Shown piece by piece: positions 5,759 to 31,830 of a DNA stretch of 34,273 nucleotides. Position 1 is the first letter of the stretch. The number at the start of each line of letters is the position of its first letter. This DNA comes from a virus. The stretch lies in the UHGV virus genome UHGV-0115609; one strand, given 5' to 3'. The translations under genes were made by a program, and so were the position numbers. A model generated the notes under the pieces. The model was not told the origin of the DNA and made no database searches. It saw only the letters and a list, made by a program, of their open reading frames with translations.

Positions 5759-5833
5759 GATGGTGTAGCTCAGCGGTAGAGCAGTTGGCTGTTAACCAAC
5801 TGGTCGGTGGTTCGAATCCACCCACCATCGCCA
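5759..5833 (+). tRNA. tRNA-Asn (anticodon GTT)
   Basis: Cloverleaf by hand: acceptor GATGGTG/CACCATC, D-arm GCTCAGCGGTAGAGC, anticodon stem GTTGG/CCAAC with loop CTGTTAA, T-arm GGTGG-TTCGAAT-CCACC, discriminator G, encoded CCA. Confidence 0.85.
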
Positions 5834-5838
5834 ATTTA

Positions 5839-5925
5839 GGGGAGTTAGTCCGTAGGGGCAGCGGGGTAGACTGTAAATCTACTGTCATTGCGACTCGGGT
5901 GGTTCGACTCCATCACTCCCCACCA
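5839..5925 (+). tRNA. tRNA-Tyr (anticodon GTA), type II with long variable arm
   Basis: Acceptor GGGGAGT/ACTCCCC, anticodon stem GTAGA/TCTAC with loop CTGTAAA, long variable arm, T-loop TTCGACT, encoded CCA. The anticodon arm closely resembles E. coli tRNA-Tyr. Confidence 0.75.
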
Positions 5926-5929
5926 AATT

Positions 5930-6005
5930 GCCGGTTTAGCTCAGTTGGTAGAGCGCCTGCCTTGTAAGCAGGATGTCAGCGGTTCGATCCCGTTAACCGG
6001 CACCA
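5930..6005 (+). tRNA. tRNA-Thr (anticodon TGT)
   Basis: Acceptor GCCGGTT/AACCGGC, D-arm AGCTCAGTTGGTAGAGC, anticodon stem CCTGC/GCAGG with loop CTTGTAA, T-loop TTCGATC, encoded CCA. Confidence 0.8.
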
Positions 6006-6006
6006 A

Positions 6007-6095
6007 CACAACAGGTAAGAGCATTGGGCGAATCGGCGATACTGACCCACAAGCCCGTAAATCGATAGAGTCAGACCAGTGCTCTTACCGTTGTG
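6007..6095 (+). ncRNA. Long hairpin H2 starting 1 nt after the tRNA-Thr CCA
   Basis: Left arm CACAACAGGTAAGAGCATTGG (6007-6027) pairs with right arm CCAGTGCTCTTACCGTTGTG (6076-6095), with one bulge and one mismatch. Confidence 0.45.
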
Positions 6096-6145
6096 AGGAA
6101 GTGCAGCTCTTTGAAGCAACCAGAAGATAAGCATCTGGCTTCACA

Positions 6146-6228
6146 ACACAACGATAAGATCATTACGGTTAATCGTCGTTCATGTGCACAATGACTGGTC
6201 GAAAGGTAGTGATCTTACCGTTGTGGTG
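6146..6228 (+). ncRNA. Long hairpin H3, paralogous to H2
   Basis: Left arm CACAACGATAAGATCATTAC pairs with right arm GGTAGTGATCTTACCGTTGTGGTG; shares the CACAAC...GTAAGA...CGTTGTG framework with H2. Confidence 0.4.
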
Positions 6229-6369
6229 GATTCGCAGACTGATGCGATAGCTTTCTTGGATGTTAGGGAAATGCGGCCGCAAATCTTCCCTTTCGCGAGC
6301 GGTGATCGTCCGTAGTCCTAATTGGCTGCACCGTATGCCGGAGATTCAGTACCGGCCACCACAACGGCC

Positions 6370-6456
6370 GGAGAGTAGGGAGCATGGTGCTCAAGCGGTC
6401 TTGAAAACCGTCCCATTGCGCAAGCGATGATGGTTCGATTCCATTACTCTCCGCCA
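6370..6456 (+). tRNA. tRNA-Ser (anticodon TGA), type II with long variable arm
   Basis: Acceptor GGAGAGT/ACTCTCC, anticodon stem GCGGT/ACCGT with loop CTTGAAA, long variable arm, T-loop TTCGATT, discriminator G, encoded CCA. Confidence 0.75.
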
Positions 6457-16686: not shown

Positions 16687-16957
16687 AGAATTATGGCGCT
16701 TGTTGAGGAAGTCACTCCTCTTACGCACTTTGTTTTGCCATGCCGGCAGTTAGCTTCTGCCTTTGACTATTCATGCGGCAACCCCGCATTTCGCCACAAT
16801 GGGCAATTCACTTTTATGGAATAAACTGGCCGTTGTGTCGATTTAATTAGCATGGCCTTACCATGCTAATTTATTCAACTTGTACAATCCTACAAATCTA
16901 TCCACTCAGGCTTACACCGTCTTCGTTATTGTAGAAATGAGGATCATCAGCGTTGAA

Positions 16958-17173
16958 TCAGCTTAGAGCAACGACATTTGCTGCTGCTGGGCCTTTAGCA
17001 CCATTCTCGATAGAGAATTCGACCTGCTGGCCTTCTTCCAAAGTGCGGAAATTATTACTCTGAATTGCCGAAAAATGTACAAAAACATCTTTACTGCCAT
17101 CAGCAGGAGAAATAAAGCCAAAGCCTTTATCAGAGTTAAACCATTTTACTAAACCAGTCATTTTATTAGACAT
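16958..17173 (-). CDS. Cold-shock protein, CspA family (71 aa)
   Basis: [38 protein letters not shown]... carries the RNP1/RNP2 motifs (KGFGFI, VFVHF) and is near-colinear with E. coli CspA. Start at ATG 17173 with RBS AAGAAGG; the longer ORF-track start is rejected. Confidence 0.9.
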
Positions 17174-17502
17174 AGATATTACCTTCTTAATTTTGTGAGC
17201 CACATAGTGCGGCGAGAATTTGATCTGTATAGATTGGGACTTACTTAGGCACTTAAGGAGGAGACTCACGAAGAAGGGAAATCAGAAGATAACACTGAAC
17301 TGAGACTGCTTTACTAAAACTGCTTACATAAGGTCTGTCTTGCAAACCAACGATGCTATTAACGCATACCCCTTCTTTTCATGCAACCTTTATTTTTCAA
17401 AGATAACTAATTTTTGTCACCATTGGTTTAGTAAACGTTAACGAACCAGACGATGCCAGACACCTTTACAGAGAACAGATGCCCGCCAATTGGCGGGCAT
17501 CA

Positions 17503-21456: not shown

Positions 21457-23796
21457 ATGGCAAAAGGAAAATCCGCACTGGCACTTGCTCTGAAAAAGAA
21501 AATCGGTAGCAACGACGAAATTCAGAAAGTAACTCATTGGATTGACACAGGCTTTCCTCCGTTAAACAAAGCTATTTCCGGTCGTTACGATGGCGGTTTC
21601 CCATGTGGTCGTATCGTAGAAGTATTCGGGCCACCAAGCGCGGGGAAATGTGTTACCGCAGACACCATGCTGCTGACGGAGCGTGGAATGGTAACAGTGA
21701 AAGAACTGTTTGAGATTGAGGGGCACAAAGCAACATGCACTACTCGCGATGTAGAGCATAACGTTGGACTCATCAATGAAAATGGCGTGATAGAGAAGAC
21801 CTCACACCTGACATGGAACAACCGTCGCAAATTCAAGCGTATTAAGCTGGCATCAGGCGGTTATATCGAGGCTACGTTCCGTCACCCAATCCGTGTGGTT
21901 GACGACTTAGGTAATGTCGTCTGGCGACATGCTGAAAAAATCAGTGTAGGCGACACGATTCCTTCAATGGTTGGCACACATCAATTCGGCGATCAGCACC
22001 TGGATGCCAATATCGCAAAACTGATGGGCTATTTAATTGCTGACGGATACGTGGCCTCTGAAAATTCAGTGAATTTTTCTAACACAGATCCTTTCATCAA
22101 GGATGAGTACTACCGCCTCATTTCGCTGGTATCAGACAAGATGCCAGTTACGAGAAAACATAACGGCTCGGAAGACCATGTGCTGTTTAGCAAAGAGGTG
22201 CGTTCGCTGCTTTTTAAAGAGTATGGTCTGGAGTATGAGAAAGCTGCTGGCAAGCAGGTTCCGTTGAGTGTGCGTCGCGCCAATAGCGAGGCTCAAATTG
22301 CATTCCTTCGCGGCTACTTTGAGCTGGAATGCCACGTCAATGATGGTCGCTGCATTGAGGTTGTGAGCGCGAGTGGGCTGCTGCTACAGCAAATTCGCCT
22401 CATGCTCCTGAATCTGGGGATTACGTCAACTATCTCTGAAAAACACGTCGCGGGTTATGAAAATACATATTACCGGCTGTCATTCAGTGGCTCTAATTAC
22501 GACCTTTTTCTGTCAACGATTGGTTTCGAATCTCCGGCACGTTTATCAGTGGCAACCAAACGGGACATTGGTTTTGACCGCACTTACTCAGGCTATGTTC
22601 CGCACATCAGCGGCTTAGTGAAATCACTCTACGAGTCGCTCACCAAGACCACCCGTGAAGACTACGCTCTGGTAGACCACGTTATTGGCCGCGGCGATCG
22701 TGTCGGAATAGACAAACTGCGAGAAATCTATGTCTCCTTCATTGGCAGAAAGAATCGTTTTAACGAGCATCTGTTTGCACAACTGGCAGCGGTAATTGGC
22801 TCTAACTTGTTCTACGACGAAGTCGTGGCTATTGAGGAAGGTGAAGCACCAACGTTCGACGTAGCGATGCCGGAAACACACTCTTTCTGGTCTAACGGGA
22901 TTATCAGCCACAACACATTCCTTGCAACAGCAGCGATGATCTCCGCTCAAAAACAAGATGGTCTGGCGGTATTCCTCGATCATGAAAACAGTTTTGACGT
23001 TGGCCTGGCTGTAGCCAATGGCCTGAACGCAGATGAGGATGACGGTCAGTGGGTATACAAGCAGCCAGATACCTTCGAAGACTCTGTAGAGTTGATCGGC
23101 ACAATACTTAAATTGGTTCGTGATGAAGAGCTTATCCCCGAATCAGCACCTATCTGTATCGTGGCTGACTCTCTTGCGTCTATGGTTCCGAACTCCAAAG
23201 CCGAGAAGTTCGAAAAGATGGCTGAAGGCACTGCCAAAGACAAAGATCAGCTAAACATGAACGACAATACGGCACTGGCTCGTGCGACGAGTGCGAACTT
23301 CCCTACTCTGGCTTTGTGGGCACGCAAATACAACGCCTGCATCATCTTCTTGAATCAGGTTCGCACAAAAATCGGTGTAATGTTTGGCGACCCTACTACG
23401 TCGCCAGGTGGAGATTCACCGAAGTTTTACGCTTCTGTGCGCATCCGTCTCGGTGCATCGGTGATGAAGGATGGGAAAGAGAAGATCGGCCAGGACGTAG
23501 GCGCAGAATGCATCAAAAACAAAGTTGCACCACCGTATGGCAAATGCACCTGGAAATTCTACTTCGATCCTACTCGTGGCCTCGACGTTATCGAGTCGCT
23601 CGTCGAGTACATGCTGGAAGAAGGATACCTGCCAAAGAACGCCAGCGGGCGAGTTGAAATTGGTGACAAGAAATACACCAAATCGCAGATCGTCGACATG
23701 TATCGGGAGAAGCCATTAGCAGAAATCATTGCTGCGTTACAGGCGATAGATGACCGACGAGAGAAGACATCACCAACAGAAGAACTAGAAGATTAA
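21457..23796 (+). CDS. recA: RecA-family recombinase precursor containing an intein
   Basis: N-extein ...PCGRIVEVFGPPSAGK and C-extein TFLATAAM...AVFLDHENSFD...QPDTFEDS...IFLNQVRTKIGVMFGDPTTSPGGDSPKFYASVRIRL are near-colinear with bacterial RecA. The P-loop GPPSAGK/T is split by a 422-aa insertion. Confidence 0.9.
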   Translation: MAKGKSALALALKKKIGSNDEIQKVTHWIDTGFPPLNKAISGRYDGGFPCGRIVEVFGPPSAGKCVTADTMLLTERGMVTVKELFEIEGHKATCTTRDVEHNVGLINENGVIEKTSHLTWNNRRKFKRIKLASGGYIEATFRHPIRVVDDLGNVVWRHAEKISVGDTIPSMVGTHQFGDQHLDANIAKLMGYLIADGYVASENSVNFSNTDPFIKDEYYRLISLVSDKMPVTRKHNGSEDHVLFSKEVRSLLFKEYGLEYEKAAGKQVPLSVRRANSEAQIAFLRGYFELECHVNDGRCIEVVSASGLLLQQIRLMLLNLGITSTISEKHVAGYENTYYRLSFSGSNYDLFLSTIGFESPARLSVATKRDIGFDRTYSGYVPHISGLVKSLYESLTKTTREDYALVDHVIGRGDRVGIDKLREIYVSFIGRKNRFNEHLFAQLAAVIGSNLFYDEVVAIEEGEAPTFDVAMPETHSFWSNGIISHNTFLATAAMISAQKQDGLAVFLDHENSFDVGLAVANGLNADEDDGQWVYKQPDTFEDSVELIGTILKLVRDEELIPESAPICIVADSLASMVPNSKAEKFEKMAEGTAKDKDQLNMNDNTALARATSANFPTLALWARKYNACIIFLNQVRTKIGVMFGDPTTSPGGDSPKFYASVRIRLGASVMKDGKEKIGQDVGAECIKNKVAPPYGKCTWKFYFDPTRGLDVIESLVEYMLEEGYLPKNASGRVEIGDKKYTKSQIVDMYREKPLAEIIAALQAIDDRREKTSPTEELED
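21649..22914 (+). mobile_element. Intein (class 1) with LAGLIDADG homing-endonuclease domain, inserted in the RecA Walker A motif
   Basis: Begins with Cys (CVTADTMLL, block A), has a TxxH block B (ATFRHP) and ends ...HSFWSNGIISHN followed by Thr (+1). Internal LAGLIDADG motifs KLMGYLIADGYV and FLRGYFELECHV. Removing it restores GPPSAGKT. Confidence 0.85.
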
Positions 23797-23799
23797 TTA

Positions 23800-23827
23800 T
23801 CAGGCGTCCAAACGGACGCCTTTATTG
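23800..23827 (+). terminator. Rho-independent terminator after recA
   Basis: AGGCGTCC-AAAC-GGACGCCT followed by TTATTG; the same stem sequence recurs at 20201 and 24939. Confidence 0.75.
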
Positions 23828-28079: not shown

Positions 28080-28122
28080 TCCAAATGTCTCTTGTTATTC
28101 GACGGCTTTGGTGGCCTTTGCT

Positions 28123-28243
28123 GATTACAGTGGATAGTAGCACTCATCACAGCGGTTATCCTACCGTCTATAGTGGTTTTTCTCCTCTCTATAGTGGTTG
28201 CTTTGCTCCCTATAGTGGATTATTCGCTCTCTATAGTGGATAT
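28123..28243. repeat. Six direct iterons (consensus CTCTATAGTGG(A/T)T) at 21-22 bp spacing, abutting the repA start (incC-like, probable autoregulated promoter/origin iterons)
   Basis: AGTGG/AGCGG cores at 28129, 28151, 28172, 28193, 28214 and 28235 (spacings 22, 21, 21, 21, 21), about two helical turns apart as in iteron replicons. Confidence 0.85.
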
Positions 28244-28289
28244 CGATCATGTCTGAAGGCAGATGGCGCAACGGTTTGAGGTGGGCGGG

Positions 28290-28408
28290 GATCTTATTGG
28301 GTCTTTATGGGTCTCTTTGGTTCTCTTTGTGATCTGAATTACTGGATCGGGCCTGTGGATAAAATCAGAGGATTTCAAGAACAGGTAACTCTACTCTTCT
28401 GTGGATAT
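28290..28408. promoter_or_regulatory. Origin-like module B: GATC sites and degenerate (G)GGTCTCTTTG repeats plus DnaA boxes
   Basis: GATC at 28290, 28331 and 28345; three tandem GGTCT/GTTCT-containing 11-mers (28297-28330); perfect DnaA box TGTGGATAA (28354-28362, complement of TTATCCACA) and near-perfect TGTGGATAT (28400-28408). Confidence 0.7.
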
Positions 28409-28519
28409 TTAAGGACATAAGAATCATGACTAAGAGTAGAGTTTAAAATATATCTATGTATATCAGTATGTTAATGAAGAATTAAGTCATTAAGTTATCC
28501 ATAAAAGACAATGTGCTCT

Positions 28520-28625
28520 ACTCTCTACAGTGGATATATACAGCTCTCCAGAGTGGTTGTTTTACTCTTCATAGCGGTTATTCAGCTCTCTACAGAGGTT
28601 TCTTTGCTCTCCATAGTGGATGGCA
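28520..28625. repeat. Second set of five direct iterons at 21-23 bp spacing
   Basis: Cores AGTGG 28529, AGTGG 28552, AGCGG 28573, AGAGG 28594, AGTGG 28615, each preceded by CTCT(A/C)(C/T); separated from the first set by an AT-rich stretch (28410-28510). Confidence 0.8.
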
Positions 28626-28662
28626 ACACCCTTTCAGACCAGTAACCGCAACGGCTAGAGGC

Positions 28663-28734
28663 GATCGGGGATCTCTTTGGATCTTCTATTTGATCTTACT
28701 TGGGATCTCTTATTTGGATCTATCCAGTGGATAA
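28663..28734. promoter_or_regulatory. Origin-like module A: cluster of six GATC (Dam) sites plus a DnaA-like box
   Basis: GATC at 28663, 28670, 28680, 28692, 28704 and 28717 within 58 bp, embedded in (T/G)GGATCT repeats; AGTGGATAA (28726-28734) is one mismatch from a DnaA box. Confidence 0.75.
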
Positions 28735-28821: not shown

Positions 28822-29466
28822 ATGGATCTAAAACGCACGCGCTGGGTTCGTCGTCTTGAGGACGGCTCCTACACTATCGAATCAAATTCCAACCTGAATA
28901 AGCAGAAGTTGCTTTGTGACATCTGCGGTATAGCGGCGAAGTGCCCGATCTACGAAACCAGAATTAAACTTGATAAGGCTGGTGTGAATTTTCATTTAAA
29001 CAGTTGCATCAGGTACGTTCCATTGCTCGCATTTCGTAAACCGATCATCGGATTGGATGCACCCTACTTCAACACACTCCGTTCAGGTGTGACGTGGCAA
29101 GATCGTTTATCACCAGACAAGCTGATTTGCCTTGTATCCGCAGACACAGGGAAAATCATCCGTTTTGGGAAAGTAGACAAGGTTTACTCAGGCCCAGTAG
29201 ACGAAATGTTGCGGAAACACAGCCGGTTTAATCATCTCTGTATGGGTGGTGAGAAAATCGAGAAGGTAGAAGAAGTGATCCGCAAATCCTACGGACACTT
29301 CCTGACCAAAGATAGCCTGCTCACCGCAATCTACATCAGACATGTAAAACGTGAGTTCGACCTCGAATACCACAGTGAAGAAGAGCTTAACCTTGTTGAC
29401 CCACGTCCAAAAGCTGGCGTCATAAGCATAAACGCAGCGCGTAAAAAGCCCACTGAGACGTTTTAA
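28822..29466 (+). CDS. Hypothetical protein (214 aa)
   Basis: Long ORF just beyond the origin region; no motif recognised. Confidence 0.55.
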   Translation: MDLKRTRWVRRLEDGSYTIESNSNLNKQKLLCDICGIAAKCPIYETRIKLDKAGVNFHLNSCIRYVPLLAFRKPIIGLDAPYFNTLRSGVTWQDRLSPDKLICLVSADTGKIIRFGKVDKVYSGPVDEMLRKHSRFNHLCMGGEKIEKVEEVIRKSYGHFLTKDSLLTAIYIRHVKREFDLEYHSEEELNLVDPRPKAGVISINAARKKPTETF

Positions 29467-29541
29467 ACGTAATCTCAGGGTTTAACCGAGGCATAAAATA
29501 TGGTGCATTAGAAAGACACTGAGGGCTTTTAGGATTAATAC

Positions 29542-29983
29542 ATGAGTGAATTTTATTCAAGGGCAGCAACTGTGACAGACATGCCTTTTATCATGGCTGA
29601 GTTCGAGGACGGCGCACGCAAAGGTCACTTCTACGAAGAGATCCTCACATCAAAGGGGGGGGTAAAACCTTTGAGCAGCAGACCAGACTGGCAATCAAGA
29701 CGAACGAGCGGGGCCAATACTCCGGGCATTTTATCTACATCCTGCTGCATCGTTCTGATGACAAAAAGTAGGACTAATCTGGTTCTGTGCCGCACTCGAT
29801 CCGACTGGCGCACCTTGACTTGAACTCCGTGCCGTCAGTATTGTCAAAGAGCTTCGCGGAAAAGGCTATGGGTCAATGCTGGTGTCCGACATGATCGCAT
29901 CAAACCCTAGTCAGCCGATGATGGCAAAGTGCTACGTCAAATCCTCGCAAATGGCCGACATGCTGTTTCGCGACCCAAAATAA
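29542..29983 (+). pseudogene. GNAT-family N-acetyltransferase, disrupted (at least two frameshifts plus an in-frame TGA)
   Basis: Frame 1 from ATG 29542 through a G8 tract (29655-29662); protein-like sequence continues in the -1 frame (KTFEQQTRLAIKTNERGQYSGHFIYILLHRSDDKK) to an A5 tract (29763-29767), then in the +1 frame (VGLIWFCAALDPTGAP, TGA at 29816, then LELRAVSIVKELRGKGYGSMLV... with the GNAT motif A R-G-x-G-x-G) to the stop at 29981-29983. Confidence 0.55.
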
Positions 29984-30014
29984 AAAGCACCCCATACGAG
30001 GTGCTCCTGAAGAA

Positions 30015-30518
30015 TTAATCACAAGTCGTTTTGCCCGTGCCGTCTGGGTACACGATTGATTCGCACGACTTGCCATTCAAGAAGCTGTAGCTGCGAATAG
30101 TACCGTCCGGATCGCGTTCTGTGTAAGACTCCAGCTTCTTCGGATCAGCGTTCTTACGGCGCACTTCTTTCAGCTCATATTGGGCCTTGTACATCTCCTT
30201 GTAGGCTTCCTCTATGCGTTTCATTTTGATCTCCTTTGCCTCTTTGCTGCCCAGATAAGCGGCCATTTCAAGATCACAGTTGAACCTGATTTTTGGGAAT
30301 GAAGGCGCGTATCTACCCATGACTTTGGTTAAATCATTGTCGTTAGAGACATAATAGGCATGGCTTCCACACAATTTGTCGGCTCTGTCTTGGGCAATTG
30401 CTACGCTTGAAGTGGAGTAAATATCAACGTACCCGCCAGCTGACTTTTCATCTTGAGGTGGTTTTGGTACGCATCCGATCAGAGCAATGGCCATCGTCCC
30501 TATAATTACGCGTTTCAC
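30015..30518 (-). CDS. Hypothetical lipoprotein (167 aa)
   Basis: GTG start with GGAG RBS; signal peptide with lipobox ALIGC; convergent with the GNAT pseudogene across the hairpin AGCACC...GGTGCT (29986-30007). Confidence 0.6.
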   Translation of the reverse strand: MKRVIIGTMAIALIGCVPKPPQDEKSAGGYVDIYSTSSVAIAQDRADKLCGSHAYYVSNDNDLTKVMGRYAPSFPKIRFNCDLEMAAYLGSKEAKEIKMKRIEEAYKEMYKAQYELKEVRRKNADPKKLESYTERDPDGTIRSYSFLNGKSCESIVYPDGTGKTTCD

Positions 30519-30744
30519 CGTCAGTTCTCCTTTTTCGTTTGGTTGTCATCATTAAGTGACTGCGATTATAGAGTGGCTTGTAACATCTAGAAGTCTTTGC
30601 TGTCCATAAAAATAGGTATTCACTTACCTATGAATTTGCCATAATCATGTGTCTGTGAACATTCTTAATGGCCGTGTTATCTGGATTGTTCGCCTCTCAA
30701 ACACACTTAATATCTGTATCAAAATAACCACAAAGGAAAAACAC

Positions 30745-31830
30745 ATGACTTTGCCATACGGCGTCATTTCTGACTGCCACTACCACAAATGGGATGCGTT
30801 CTCCACGACGAACGCTGAGGGGCTTAACTCCAGACTTGAAATACAGTTGGAAGCAACGAAAGAAGCAGCCATCGCCATGAAGAAGGCCGGTTGTAAGTAC
30901 ATGTTGGTTGCCGGTGATACATTTCACGTCCGAGGAACTGTGTCCCCTTCTGTTTTGCATTACGTAACTGAAACGTACAAGTGGATTATCAACGAGCTTG
31001 ATCTGACAGTAGTAATGCTGGCCGGTAATCACGATCTTGAAACCAACGATTCAGTATATAGCGCCAACGCAGCAGCATCGCTGAGTTCTATCGGCGTGGT
31101 AATCGTATGTGGCAAGCGCCCACACTCAATAAAAATTGGTGATGTGACTGTCCACCTGATTAGCTGGCGTAACAATCATGCGGAGCTTATCAGCGATCTG
31201 AAAGCATTACGTAAGAGCGTAGAAGGTGACAATCATGACGTTGTTATCCATACATCCATTAACAAAGCCATTCCAACAATGCCTGACGTCGGTATCGATG
31301 CGCAGGAGTTAAAGGATATCGGCTTTCGTCTCGTGCTTAGTGGGCATTACCACAACCACAAAGAGGTCATTCCTGGAGTTATCAGTGTCGGTGCACTGAC
31401 TCATCAAAATTGGGGAGATGTTGGATCTCTGGCTGGCTACATGATCGTAAACCCGGACGGCAGTTTCAGTCACTACGAAACCAGTGCGCCTAAATTCATT
31501 AACCTGGAAGATGATGTTGCTGATGACCAAATTCGCGGCAACTACGTGCGTTTCCGCGCCGTAATTGAGAACGATGAAGAAGGCATTAAGTACCAGAACA
31601 TCCTCAAAACAATGGGTGCAAAAGGTGTCGTGTGCAACTTCATCCGTAAGTCATCAATGATGGAAGGGACAGCCAGCACAACTGAAACCAGCAAAATCGA
31701 TAGCCTGGGAGAGTCGGTATCTGCTTATTGCAAGATTGTCCACGATACTGACGGCGGATTTGATCTGAGCAAATTGGATATTTTGTGTCAGGAAATCCTC
31801 ACCGAAGCGGAGAGTTCGGAGGCTGTGTGA
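30745..31830 (+). CDS. sbcD: SbcD/Mre11-like nuclease (calcineurin-like phosphoesterase; T4 gp47 analogue)
   Basis: Phosphoesterase motifs DCHYH, AGDTFH, AGNHD and SGHYHNH in the canonical order. Start at ATG 30745 with the conserved CCACAAAGGAAAAACAC context. Confidence 0.85.
   Translation: MTLPYGVISDCHYHKWDAFSTTNAEGLNSRLEIQLEATKEAAIAMKKAGCKYMLVAGDTFHVRGTVSPSVLHYVTETYKWIINELDLTVVMLAGNHDLETNDSVYSANAAASLSSIGVVIVCGKRPHSIKIGDVTVHLISWRNNHAELISDLKALRKSVEGDNHDVVIHTSINKAIPTMPDVGIDAQELKDIGFRLVLSGHYHNHKEVIPGVISVGALTHQNWGDVGSLAGYMIVNPDGSFSHYETSAPKFINLEDDVADDQIRGNYVRFRAVIENDEEGIKYQNILKTMGAKGVVCNFIRKSSMMEGTASTTETSKIDSLGESVSAYCKIVHDTDGGFDLSKLDILCQEILTEAESSEAV

What the first reader, a model, noticed from the sequence alone, without database searches (positions are those of the whole stretch)
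29542..29983. GNAT acetyltransferase gene broken at G8 and A5 homopolymers plus an in-frame stop
A recognisable acetyltransferase reading (N-terminal region, then the R-G-x-G-x-G CoA-binding motif in LRGKGYGSMLV) can be followed only by switching frame at a G8 tract (29655-29662) and again near an A5 tract (29763-29767), and by reading through a TGA at 29816. This may be a decaying cargo gene, a slipped-strand contingency locus, or in part assembly error at homopolymers. The in-frame TGA argues that at least part of the disruption is real.
Basis: seen in the sequence. Interest (0 to 1): 0.5.

Follow-up and report, generated by a model that had tools for sequence, protein, structure and literature searches.

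The report
Decayed acetyltransferase pseudogene on a phage-plasmid
This is the dead remnant of a small acetyltransferase gene carried by an SSU5-type phage-plasmid of E. coli, broken by four separate mutations; it is an ordinary decaying accessory gene, not a genetic switch or an assembly error.

Summary
Window 29542-29983 is the syntenic remnant of the 495-nt GNAT acetyltransferase gene of Salmonella phage SSU5 (SSU5_071) and its phage-plasmid relatives. Against intact copies it carries four lesions:
- G6 expanded to G8 (29655-29662).
- One base lost from the A/G run at 29763-29768.
- CGA changed to TGA (29816-29818).
It removes the family's invariant MLKRRGF block and strand beta6.

The last three lesions are identical in all 19 independent copies examined, so they are real and inherited. 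Only the G tract varies. In public assemblies the counts are G5 2, G6 16, G7 547, G8 148, G9 14, G10 4 and G11 1 contigs. No tract length restores the reading frame, so this is not a working contingency locus.

Substitutions against intact genes are mostly synonymous (25 versus 6), so inactivation is recent. Other lineages carry independent single frameshifts at the same two homopolymers, and most E. coli SSU5-like plasmids lack the gene altogether.

Verdict: an unannotated, recently decayed cargo pseudogene with a drifting poly-G tract. Low novelty.

The parts
29542..29983 (+). Remnant (442 nt) of a 495-nt GNAT N-acetyltransferase gene, the orthologue of SSU5_071. The start codon and an AGGA ribosome-binding site at 29531-29534 are still present.
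   Evidence: Alignment with intact SSU5 and Enterobacter copies. 92-93% nt identity to 176 intact plasmid genes. PGAP annotates nothing here in identical plasmids.
29655..29662 (+). Poly-G tract. It is G8 here and G6 (AAG GGG GGT = K38 G39 G40) in intact genes, giving a +2 frameshift at the start of helix alpha2.
   Evidence: The tract length varies among copies of the same pseudogene allele: G6 in 1, G7 in 10, G8 in 7 and G9 in 1 of the 19 copies. Contig counts from exact products are G5 2, G6 16, G7 547, G8 148, G9 14, G10 4 and G11 1.
29763..29768 (+). AAAAAG run that has lost one base relative to A6G (SSU5, L015) or A5GG (L010). This is a -1 frameshift at codons K74-K75, and it creates a TAG directly after DDKK in the original frame.
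   Evidence: The lesion is fixed in all 19 copies of this allele.
29816..29818 (+). Nonsense mutation CGA to TGA (R92 to stop), in strand beta4 and upstream of the acetyl-CoA-binding loop.
   Evidence: The mutation is fixed in all 19 copies.
29855..29872 (+). Codons for R-G-K-G-Y-G, the GNAT motif A (R/Q-x-x-G-x-G/A). They are readable only in the third frame.
   Evidence: G106, K107, G108 and G110 are invariant in 14 intact homologues.
29960..29964 (+). ATGCT microhomology at the junction of a 54-bp in-frame deletion. The deletion removes residues 140-157 (MLKRRGFHLFDTSPKGTQ), that is the end of helix alpha4, strand beta6 and the family's invariant MLKRRGF block.
   Evidence: alignment; invariant columns; secondary structure of the model. 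The deletion is fixed in all 19 copies.
29983..30008 (-). Terminator-like hairpin plus T-run for the convergent 167-aa gene. It abuts the stop codon of the pseudogene.
30015..30518 (-). Intact convergent 167-aa gene of unknown function. Together with the GNAT remnant it forms the variable 1.25-kb segment 29457-30705.
   Evidence: Most E. coli SSU5-like plasmids have 225 unrelated bases in place of this segment.
28822..29466 (+). Conserved upstream 214-aa backbone gene, used here as the synteny anchor.
   Evidence: It has 39 variable sites among the 19 copies, against 5 SNPs in the pseudogene segment.

Best explanation
The region is a non-functional pseudogene of an accessory GNAT-fold N-acetyltransferase carried by SSU5-family phage-plasmids. 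The substrate of the enzyme is unknown.

In one E. coli plasmid lineage the gene picked up four lesions:
- replication-slippage frameshifts at its two homopolymers (G6 and A6);
- a CGA-to-TGA nonsense mutation;
- a 54-bp deletion between 5-bp direct repeats.

Each lesion on its own removes essential parts of the fold, so no acetyltransferase can be made. At most, a peptide of 40-94 aa could be translated from the surviving start codon.

With selection gone, the lengthened poly-G tract keeps slipping. Its length now differs between otherwise near-identical plasmids. This is neutral drift, not a switch.

Shown here: the lesions, their fixation across copies, the tract polymorphism and the GNAT fold of intact relatives. 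Inferred: slippage and microhomology as the mutational mechanisms, loss of function, and relaxed selection in E. coli.
For: Synteny and alignment with intact SSU5, Enterobacter and Citrobacter genes show the four lesions.

All 19 independent copies carry the same A-run deletion, TGA and 54-bp deletion. These are 8 complete plasmids, 10 contigs from NCBI and ENA, and the window.

Translating the region with G5 through G11 never gives more than 94 aa.

The deleted 18 residues include the invariant M140-F146 block of the family and strand beta6 of a confident model (pLDDT 91). That model matches 598 PDB GNAT chains at E<=1e-3.

Against an intact Enterobacter copy there are 25 synonymous and 6 non-synonymous differences. 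Only 2 residues of the reconstructed protein are unseen in the 14 aligned intact homologues (one, H69, occurs in the intact Enterobacter copy L010), and the best identity is 136 of 146. The decay is therefore recent.

The same gene is hit independently elsewhere at the same tracts: A-run -1 in the E. cloacae complex, with its product on 124 contigs; G6 to G5; and G6 to G7.

Most E. coli SSU5-like plasmids lack the whole segment, which fits a dispensable gene.
Against: No expression or protein data are available, so residual production or use of the truncated peptide cannot be excluded.

The reads behind this particular window cannot be inspected, so G8 versus G7 in this isolate is not proven.

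No intermediate alleles of this lineage were found. The guessed products for an intact allele, a deletion-only allele and a TGA-only allele are all absent from the collection. The order of the lesions is therefore unknown.

The pseudogene segment is unusually uniform, with 5 SNPs in 533 nt against 39 in the 645-nt neighbouring gene. I attribute this to recent spread and recombination, but conservation for some other reason is not formally excluded.
Confidence: 0.93

Rival explanations
1. The locus is a functional phase-variable (contingency) locus, in which slippage of the poly-G tract switches the acetyltransferase ON and OFF.
For: The G tract is polymorphic among near-identical plasmids, from G5 to G11. 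It changes between copies with identical flanking haplotypes: L020 has G6 and L024 has G7; L008 has G9 and L022 has G7. In other lineages, single and in principle reversible frameshifts occur at the G6 and A6 tracts of otherwise intact genes.
Against: In this allele no tract length restores an ORF, because three fixed downstream lesions remain. The G6 tract is not conserved in the family: it is interrupted in L011, L012, L015 and L029. Tracts of 6 are short for a dedicated switch (general knowledge).
Confidence: 0.03
2. The disruptions are sequencing or assembly artefacts at homopolymers, and the real gene is intact.
For: Two of the four lesions lie in homopolymers. Rare tract lengths (G5, G10 and G11, on 1-4 contigs each) could include errors. 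The window has one private A-run indel at 28360 relative to all 7 related plasmids that align there.
Against: The TGA and the 54-bp deletion are not homopolymer errors. All three fixed lesions recur in 18 other independent assemblies from different laboratories and sources. G8 is shared by a clade with linked SNPs (L002, L003, L009 and L025), and its exact product is on 148 contigs.
Confidence: 0.02
3. The remnant has been put to another use. It might encode a small peptide (a 93-aa ORF in G8 copies), or it might act as a spacer, 3' region or terminator context for the convergent 167-aa gene.
For: The start codon and RBS are intact. The terminator-like hairpin of the convergent gene abuts the remnant's stop codon. 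SNP diversity in the remnant is low.
Against: The ORF product changes completely with tract length (40, 75 or 93 aa), and the commonest allele (G7) gives only 40 aa. There is no Rfam family here. The low diversity is explained equally well by recent common descent.
Confidence: 0.02

Closest known systems
SSU5_071, the putative GNAT family acetyltransferase of Salmonella phage SSU5 (AFL46998.1), and its orthologues on pHCM2/SSU5-like phage-plasmids of Enterobacter, Salmonella, Citrobacter and Klebsiella
   Same: It occupies the same genomic position, between the 214-aa gene next to repA and the convergent 167-aa gene and metallophosphoesterase gene. DNA identity is 89-93%, and the reconstructed protein is up to 136/146 identical.
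   Different: Those genes are intact at 495 nt and 164 aa. The window copy has a +2 and a -1 frameshift, a nonsense codon and an 18-codon deletion.
GNAT (GCN5-related N-acetyltransferase) superfamily, for example SpeG, RimL/RimJ and phosphinothricin acetyltransferase structures
   Same: The intact homologue is predicted with confidence to adopt the GNAT fold, and it carries the R-x-x-G-x-G motif.
   Different: Identity to any solved GNAT is only 8-20%. There is no NCBIfam equivalog, and the Pfam hit is marginal (21.0 versus a cutoff of 20.7). The substrate cannot be assigned.
Homopolymer-driven phase-variable genes (contingency loci) of Haemophilus, Neisseria, Campylobacter and Helicobacter
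   Same: It has an intragenic poly-G tract whose length differs between closely related isolates.
   Different: There is no ON state, the tract is not conserved in homologues, and additional fixed lesions are present. The variation is what is expected at a neutral mononucleotide run inside a pseudogene.
GNAT toxins of type II toxin-antitoxin modules (TacT, AtaT, KacT, ItaT)
   Same: They are of similar size (about 160-175 aa), have the GNAT fold and are plasmid-borne. AtaT (6ajm) appears among the fold matches at rank 49.
   Different: No adjacent small RHH/DUF1778 antitoxin gene is present, and the neighbours have no Pfam or PADLOC match of that kind. The fold match is no better than to generic GNATs.

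Membership tests
GNAT superfamily (ancestral gene) | Sequence match to a GNAT profile above the curated threshold | tested here: inconclusive
   Intact homologues pass Pfam PF00583 only narrowly: 21.0 and 23.8 bits against a cutoff of 20.7. The frameshift-corrected window product scores 20.5, just below the cutoff. PHROG 15387 'acetyltransferase' scores 1.6e-108 for SSU5_071.
GNAT superfamily (ancestral gene) | GNAT fold (b1-a1-a2-b2-b3-b4-a3-b5-a4-b6-b7) | tested here: met
   The AlphaFold2 model of an intact homologue has pLDDT 91 and this order of elements. Foldseek gives 598 PDB matches at E<=1e-3, and all 50 top-ranked matches listed are GNAT-type acetyltransferases. This was tested on the intact relative, not on the window product.
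GNAT superfamily (ancestral gene) | Acetyl-CoA-binding motif A, R/Q-x-x-G-x-G/A | tested here: met
   R-G-K-G-Y-G is encoded at 29855-29872. The G, K, G and G positions are invariant in 14 homologues.
GNAT superfamily (functional member) | An uninterrupted ORF encoding the whole fold | tested here: not met
   There are two frameshifts, one in-frame stop and an 18-codon deletion that removes beta6.
GNAT superfamily (functional member) | Acetyl-transfer activity and a defined substrate | not testable with these tools
   No biochemical data are available, and no equivalog model matches.
Pseudogene of an accessory gene | Homology and synteny with an intact gene, plus disabling lesions | tested here: met
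Pseudogene of an accessory gene | Lesions are inherited, meaning they are present in independent assemblies | tested here: met
   All 19 copies share the A-run deletion, the TGA and the 54-bp deletion.
Phase-variable contingency locus | Intragenic simple repeat with length polymorphism among close relatives | tested here: met
   G5 to G11 are observed.
Phase-variable contingency locus | At least one repeat length yields the full-length product (an ON state) | tested here: not met
   G5 through G11 give products of 40 to 94 aa only.
Phase-variable contingency locus | The repeat tract is maintained across homologues | tested here: not met
   The tract is interrupted in L011, L012, L015 and L029.
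GNAT toxin of a type II TA module | An adjacent cognate antitoxin gene (RHH/DUF1778) | tested here: not met
   The upstream 214-aa and downstream 167-aa proteins have no Pfam hit, and no small ORF of that kind is present.

The most novel reading that the evidence does not exclude
In intact SSU5-type phage-plasmids, the G6 and A6 runs of this GNAT gene might act as low-rate reversible mutational switches. Host populations would then carry ON and OFF variants of an accessory acetyltransferase. The E. cloacae-complex A-run allele, found on 124 contigs, would be an OFF variant. The E. coli allele in this window would be a switch that was locked OFF and then decayed. Alternatively, loss of the enzyme could be positively selected in certain hosts.
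Probability: 0.07. Interest if true: 0.4.

Novelty: new member of a known kind. Interest (0 to 1): 0.15.

Why it matters
The practical value is for annotation and typing. RefSeq leaves this region blank in identical plasmids, so a pseudogene label is missing. The fixed triple lesion is a clean marker for one E. coli sub-lineage of SSU5-like phage-plasmids. The G-tract length is a fast-evolving and error-prone character that should not be over-interpreted.

Biologically, the locus is a small, well-resolved example of accessory-gene decay on a phage-plasmid. The same two homopolymers are hit repeatedly in different hosts, and the gene is absent from most E. coli relatives. It raises no new mechanism.

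Tried and rejected
Searches and checks that led nowhere:
- An exact scan for the deletion junction in IMG/VR viral contigs found nothing.
- Exact look-ups of guessed intermediate alleles (lineage-specific intact, deletion-only, TGA-only) found none, so the order of the lesions could not be resolved.
- NCBIfam, PADLOC and a PDB sequence search gave no specific functional assignment for the intact GNAT. Fold search gave only generic GNAT matches.
- Rfam found no RNA family in the region.
- The promoter scan was no better than shuffled sequence: 2 found against 2.0 expected.
- A literature search found no paper discussing this gene or pseudogene.

Readings considered and rejected:
- Programmed recoding (frameshifting plus TGA read-through) was rejected. 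The required shift would differ between G6, G7, G8 and G9 alleles, and the deletion removes invariant residues anyway.
- The idea that G7 (+1) and A5 (-1) compensate each other was rejected, because a TAA follows the G7 tract immediately.
- The two 494-aa proteins placed in the cluster of the 40-aa peptide are unrelated and reflect a clustering artefact.

Full report
**What the window is.** The 901 bases around the finding match SSU5-like phage-plasmids. Identity is 100% to E. coli plasmid pAMPD01 (NZ_CP058309.1) and 99-99.9% to six further E. coli plasmids. It is about 89% to Salmonella phage SSU5 and to many Enterobacter, Salmonella and Citrobacter plasmids. Over the whole 34 kb the window is about 98.8% identical to pAMPD01, with mosaic patches, so it is a related but distinct plasmid. 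The stretch 29062-30866 is identical between the two. The finding lies about 1 kb from repA and its iterons. It sits between a conserved 214-aa gene (28822-29466) and a convergent 167-aa gene (30015-30518), which is followed by a metallophosphoesterase gene.

**Alignment with intact genes.** I aligned the region with the intact 495-nt gene of SSU5 (SSU5_071, 'putative GNAT family acetyltransferase') and with an Enterobacter hormaechei copy. The alignment shows four lesions, not three:
- AAG GGG GGT (K38 G39 G40) has become a G8 run, a +2 frameshift.
- The run GACAAAAAAG, or GACAAAAAGG, has lost one base. This gives a TAG straight after DDKK in the original frame.
- CGA has become TGA at codon 92.
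- 54 bp are missing between two ATGCT repeats, with the junction at 29960-29964.

**Are the lesions real?** I examined 18 other independent copies of this allele. Eight are complete plasmids from PLSDB and RefSeq. Ten are contigs from NCBI assemblies and ENA metagenomes, found through the neighbouring 167-aa protein. All 18 carry the identical A-run deletion, TGA and 54-bp deletion, so these three lesions are inherited and not artefacts.
- In PLSDB the allele accounts for 7 of the 183 plasmids that carry this gene. The other 176 match at 80-95% identity over 96% of the query, and most are annotated as GNAT genes. The five of them read in full (L010, L013, L014, L016 and SSU5) carry an uninterrupted 495-nt gene.
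- PGAP annotates nothing at all across the remnant.

**The G tract.** This is the only variable lesion. Among the 19 copies it is G6 once, G7 ten times, G8 seven times and G9 once.
- Each tract length produces a distinct N-terminal ORF product, so I looked those exact products up among about 15 billion proteins. They occur on 2 (G5), 16 (G6), 547 (G7), 148 (G8), 14 (G9) and 4 (G10) contigs. One G11 variant was also found.
- In a SNP table of the 19 copies, G8 is shared by a clade (L002, L003, L009, L025) that has the same flanking haplotype; two of its members (L009, L025) also share the SNP at 29664. It is therefore heritable.
- Tract length also differs between copies whose flanks are identical or nearly so: L020 has G6 and L024 has G7; L008 has G9 and L022 has G7.
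- The tract therefore changes recurrently. The rarest lengths may include sequencing errors.

**Why it is not a working switch.** Translating the allele with G5 through G11 gives products of 40, 41, 75, 76 or 92-94 aa and never a complete protein. The G6 tract is also not a conserved feature of the family. It is interrupted in intact alleles on other plasmid types and in one Enterobacter lineage.

**What was lost.** The family is small: 27 clusters at 90% identity among 5.8 billion proteins, all from enterobacterial plasmids or phage-plasmids.
- Profile matches are weak. Pfam PF00583 scores 21.0 and 23.8 bits against a cutoff of 20.7. There is no NCBIfam equivalog and no significant PDB sequence match.
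- An AlphaFold2 model built on 14 homologues is confident (pLDDT 91) and has the GNAT order of strands and helices. Foldseek finds 598 PDB chains at E<=1e-3, and all 50 top-ranked matches listed are GNAT-type acetyltransferases at 8-20% identity. No subfamily stands out.
- The ancestral gene therefore encoded a GNAT-fold acetyltransferase of unknown substrate.
- I found no sign of a toxin-antitoxin or defence context.

**Mapping the lesions on the model.**
- The G tract lies at the start of helix alpha2.
- The A run lies in the beta2-beta3 turn.
- The stop codon lies in beta4, before the R-G-K-G-Y-G acetyl-CoA loop.
- The deletion removes the end of alpha4, strand beta6 and the invariant M-L-K-R-R-G-F block.
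- Any one of these lesions should abolish function. This last point is inference from the general architecture of GNAT enzymes.

**Age and cause.** Against the intact Enterobacter copy there are 25 synonymous and 6 non-synonymous differences, one of which is the stop codon.
- The frameshift-corrected protein is up to 136/146 identical to intact proteins. Only two of its residues are unseen among the 14 aligned intact homologues, and one of them (H69) occurs in the intact Enterobacter copy L010.
- The gene was therefore under purifying selection for almost all of its divergence and died recently.
- The pseudogene segment has only 5 SNPs in 533 nt among the 19 copies, against 39 variable sites in the 645-nt upstream gene. 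This fits a single recent origin spread over recombining backbones.
- The lesion types point to replication slippage at mononucleotide runs and to a slippage or microhomology deletion between 5-bp repeats. This is inference.

**Wider pattern.** Other lineages with an otherwise full-length gene carry single frameshifts at the same places.
- A-run -1 occurs in L029 and L033. Its 77-aa product is on 124 contigs of the E. cloacae complex.
- G6 to G5 occurs in L030.
- G6 to G7 occurs in L032.
- A4 to A3, right after the G tract, occurs in L031.
- A further, unrelated frameshift was seen in P0073.
- Most E. coli SSU5-like plasmids lack the gene entirely. They have 225 unrelated bases in place of window 29457-30705.
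- The GNAT gene is thus a dispensable cargo gene that is lost repeatedly. The allele in this window is the most decayed state seen.

**Comparison with known things, and novelty.** This is an unannotated pseudogene of a known, uncharacterised, phage-plasmid GNAT gene. It resembles a contingency locus only in having a polymorphic homopolymer, and it fails the defining test of having an ON state. I found no paper that discusses it. It is a new instance of a very familiar phenomenon.

**Verdict.** Interest is low (0.15). The residual novel possibility is that the G6 and A6 runs act as reversible switches in intact alleles, or that loss of the gene is selected in some hosts. I give this about 7%.

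Noticed in passing
window 28122-28733: There are two clusters of 21-bp-spaced iteron-like repeats (core TCTCTATAGTGGAT, 9 copies) plus a duplicated 39-nt element, lying between repA and the 214-aa gene. This is presumably the plasmid replication origin. The window has a private 1-nt A-run deletion at 28360 relative to all 7 related plasmids that align there.
   Followed up: partly
window 5759-6456: ARAGORN finds four tRNA genes here (Asn-GTT, Tyr-GTA, Thr-TGT and Ser-TGA). The closely related pAMPD01 is annotated with only three (Asn, Thr, Ser), and the two sequences are not collinear here. The tRNA-Tyr therefore looks like a variable insertion.
   Followed up: partly
window 16933-17351 (-): A full-length match to the cspA thermoregulator RNA (Rfam RF01766, 187.6 bits) lies upstream of a phage-plasmid-borne cspG-like cold-shock gene.
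   Followed up: no
window 29457-30705: The GNAT remnant and the convergent 167-aa gene form a 1.25-kb variable segment. The 167-aa protein has no Pfam family and has a lipoprotein-like N-terminus. Most E. coli SSU5-like plasmids have 225 unrelated bases in place of the segment. Some Enterobacter and Citrobacter plasmids keep the GNAT gene but lack the 167-aa gene. In two E. coli plasmids (L004 and L009) homology with the window ends inside the 167-aa gene, next to an IS91-family transposase gene.
   Followed up: partly
L029-L033 (Enterobacter-type plasmids), GNAT gene: Independent single-base frameshifts occur at the same G6 and A6 runs in otherwise intact copies. The A-run allele is widespread in the E. 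cloacae complex (124 contigs), and PGAP and other callers split it into 77-aa and 53-aa 'hypothetical proteins'.
   Followed up: yes
L011, L012 and L015 (E. coli plasmids of other replicon types, e.g. IncK2/Z): Intact alleles of the same GNAT family (about 89-91% nt identity) sit near repA on plasmids that lack this backbone context. The gene has therefore moved between plasmid backbones.
   Followed up: no
window about 21460-23800 (L018 22037-24376): A 'hint domain-containing protein' gene is annotated here in pAMPD01, which may indicate an intein or Hint module in a phage-plasmid gene. The window differs from pAMPD01 by dense SNP patches in this region and in the dnaE-like gene, which suggests recombination mosaics.
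   Followed up: no
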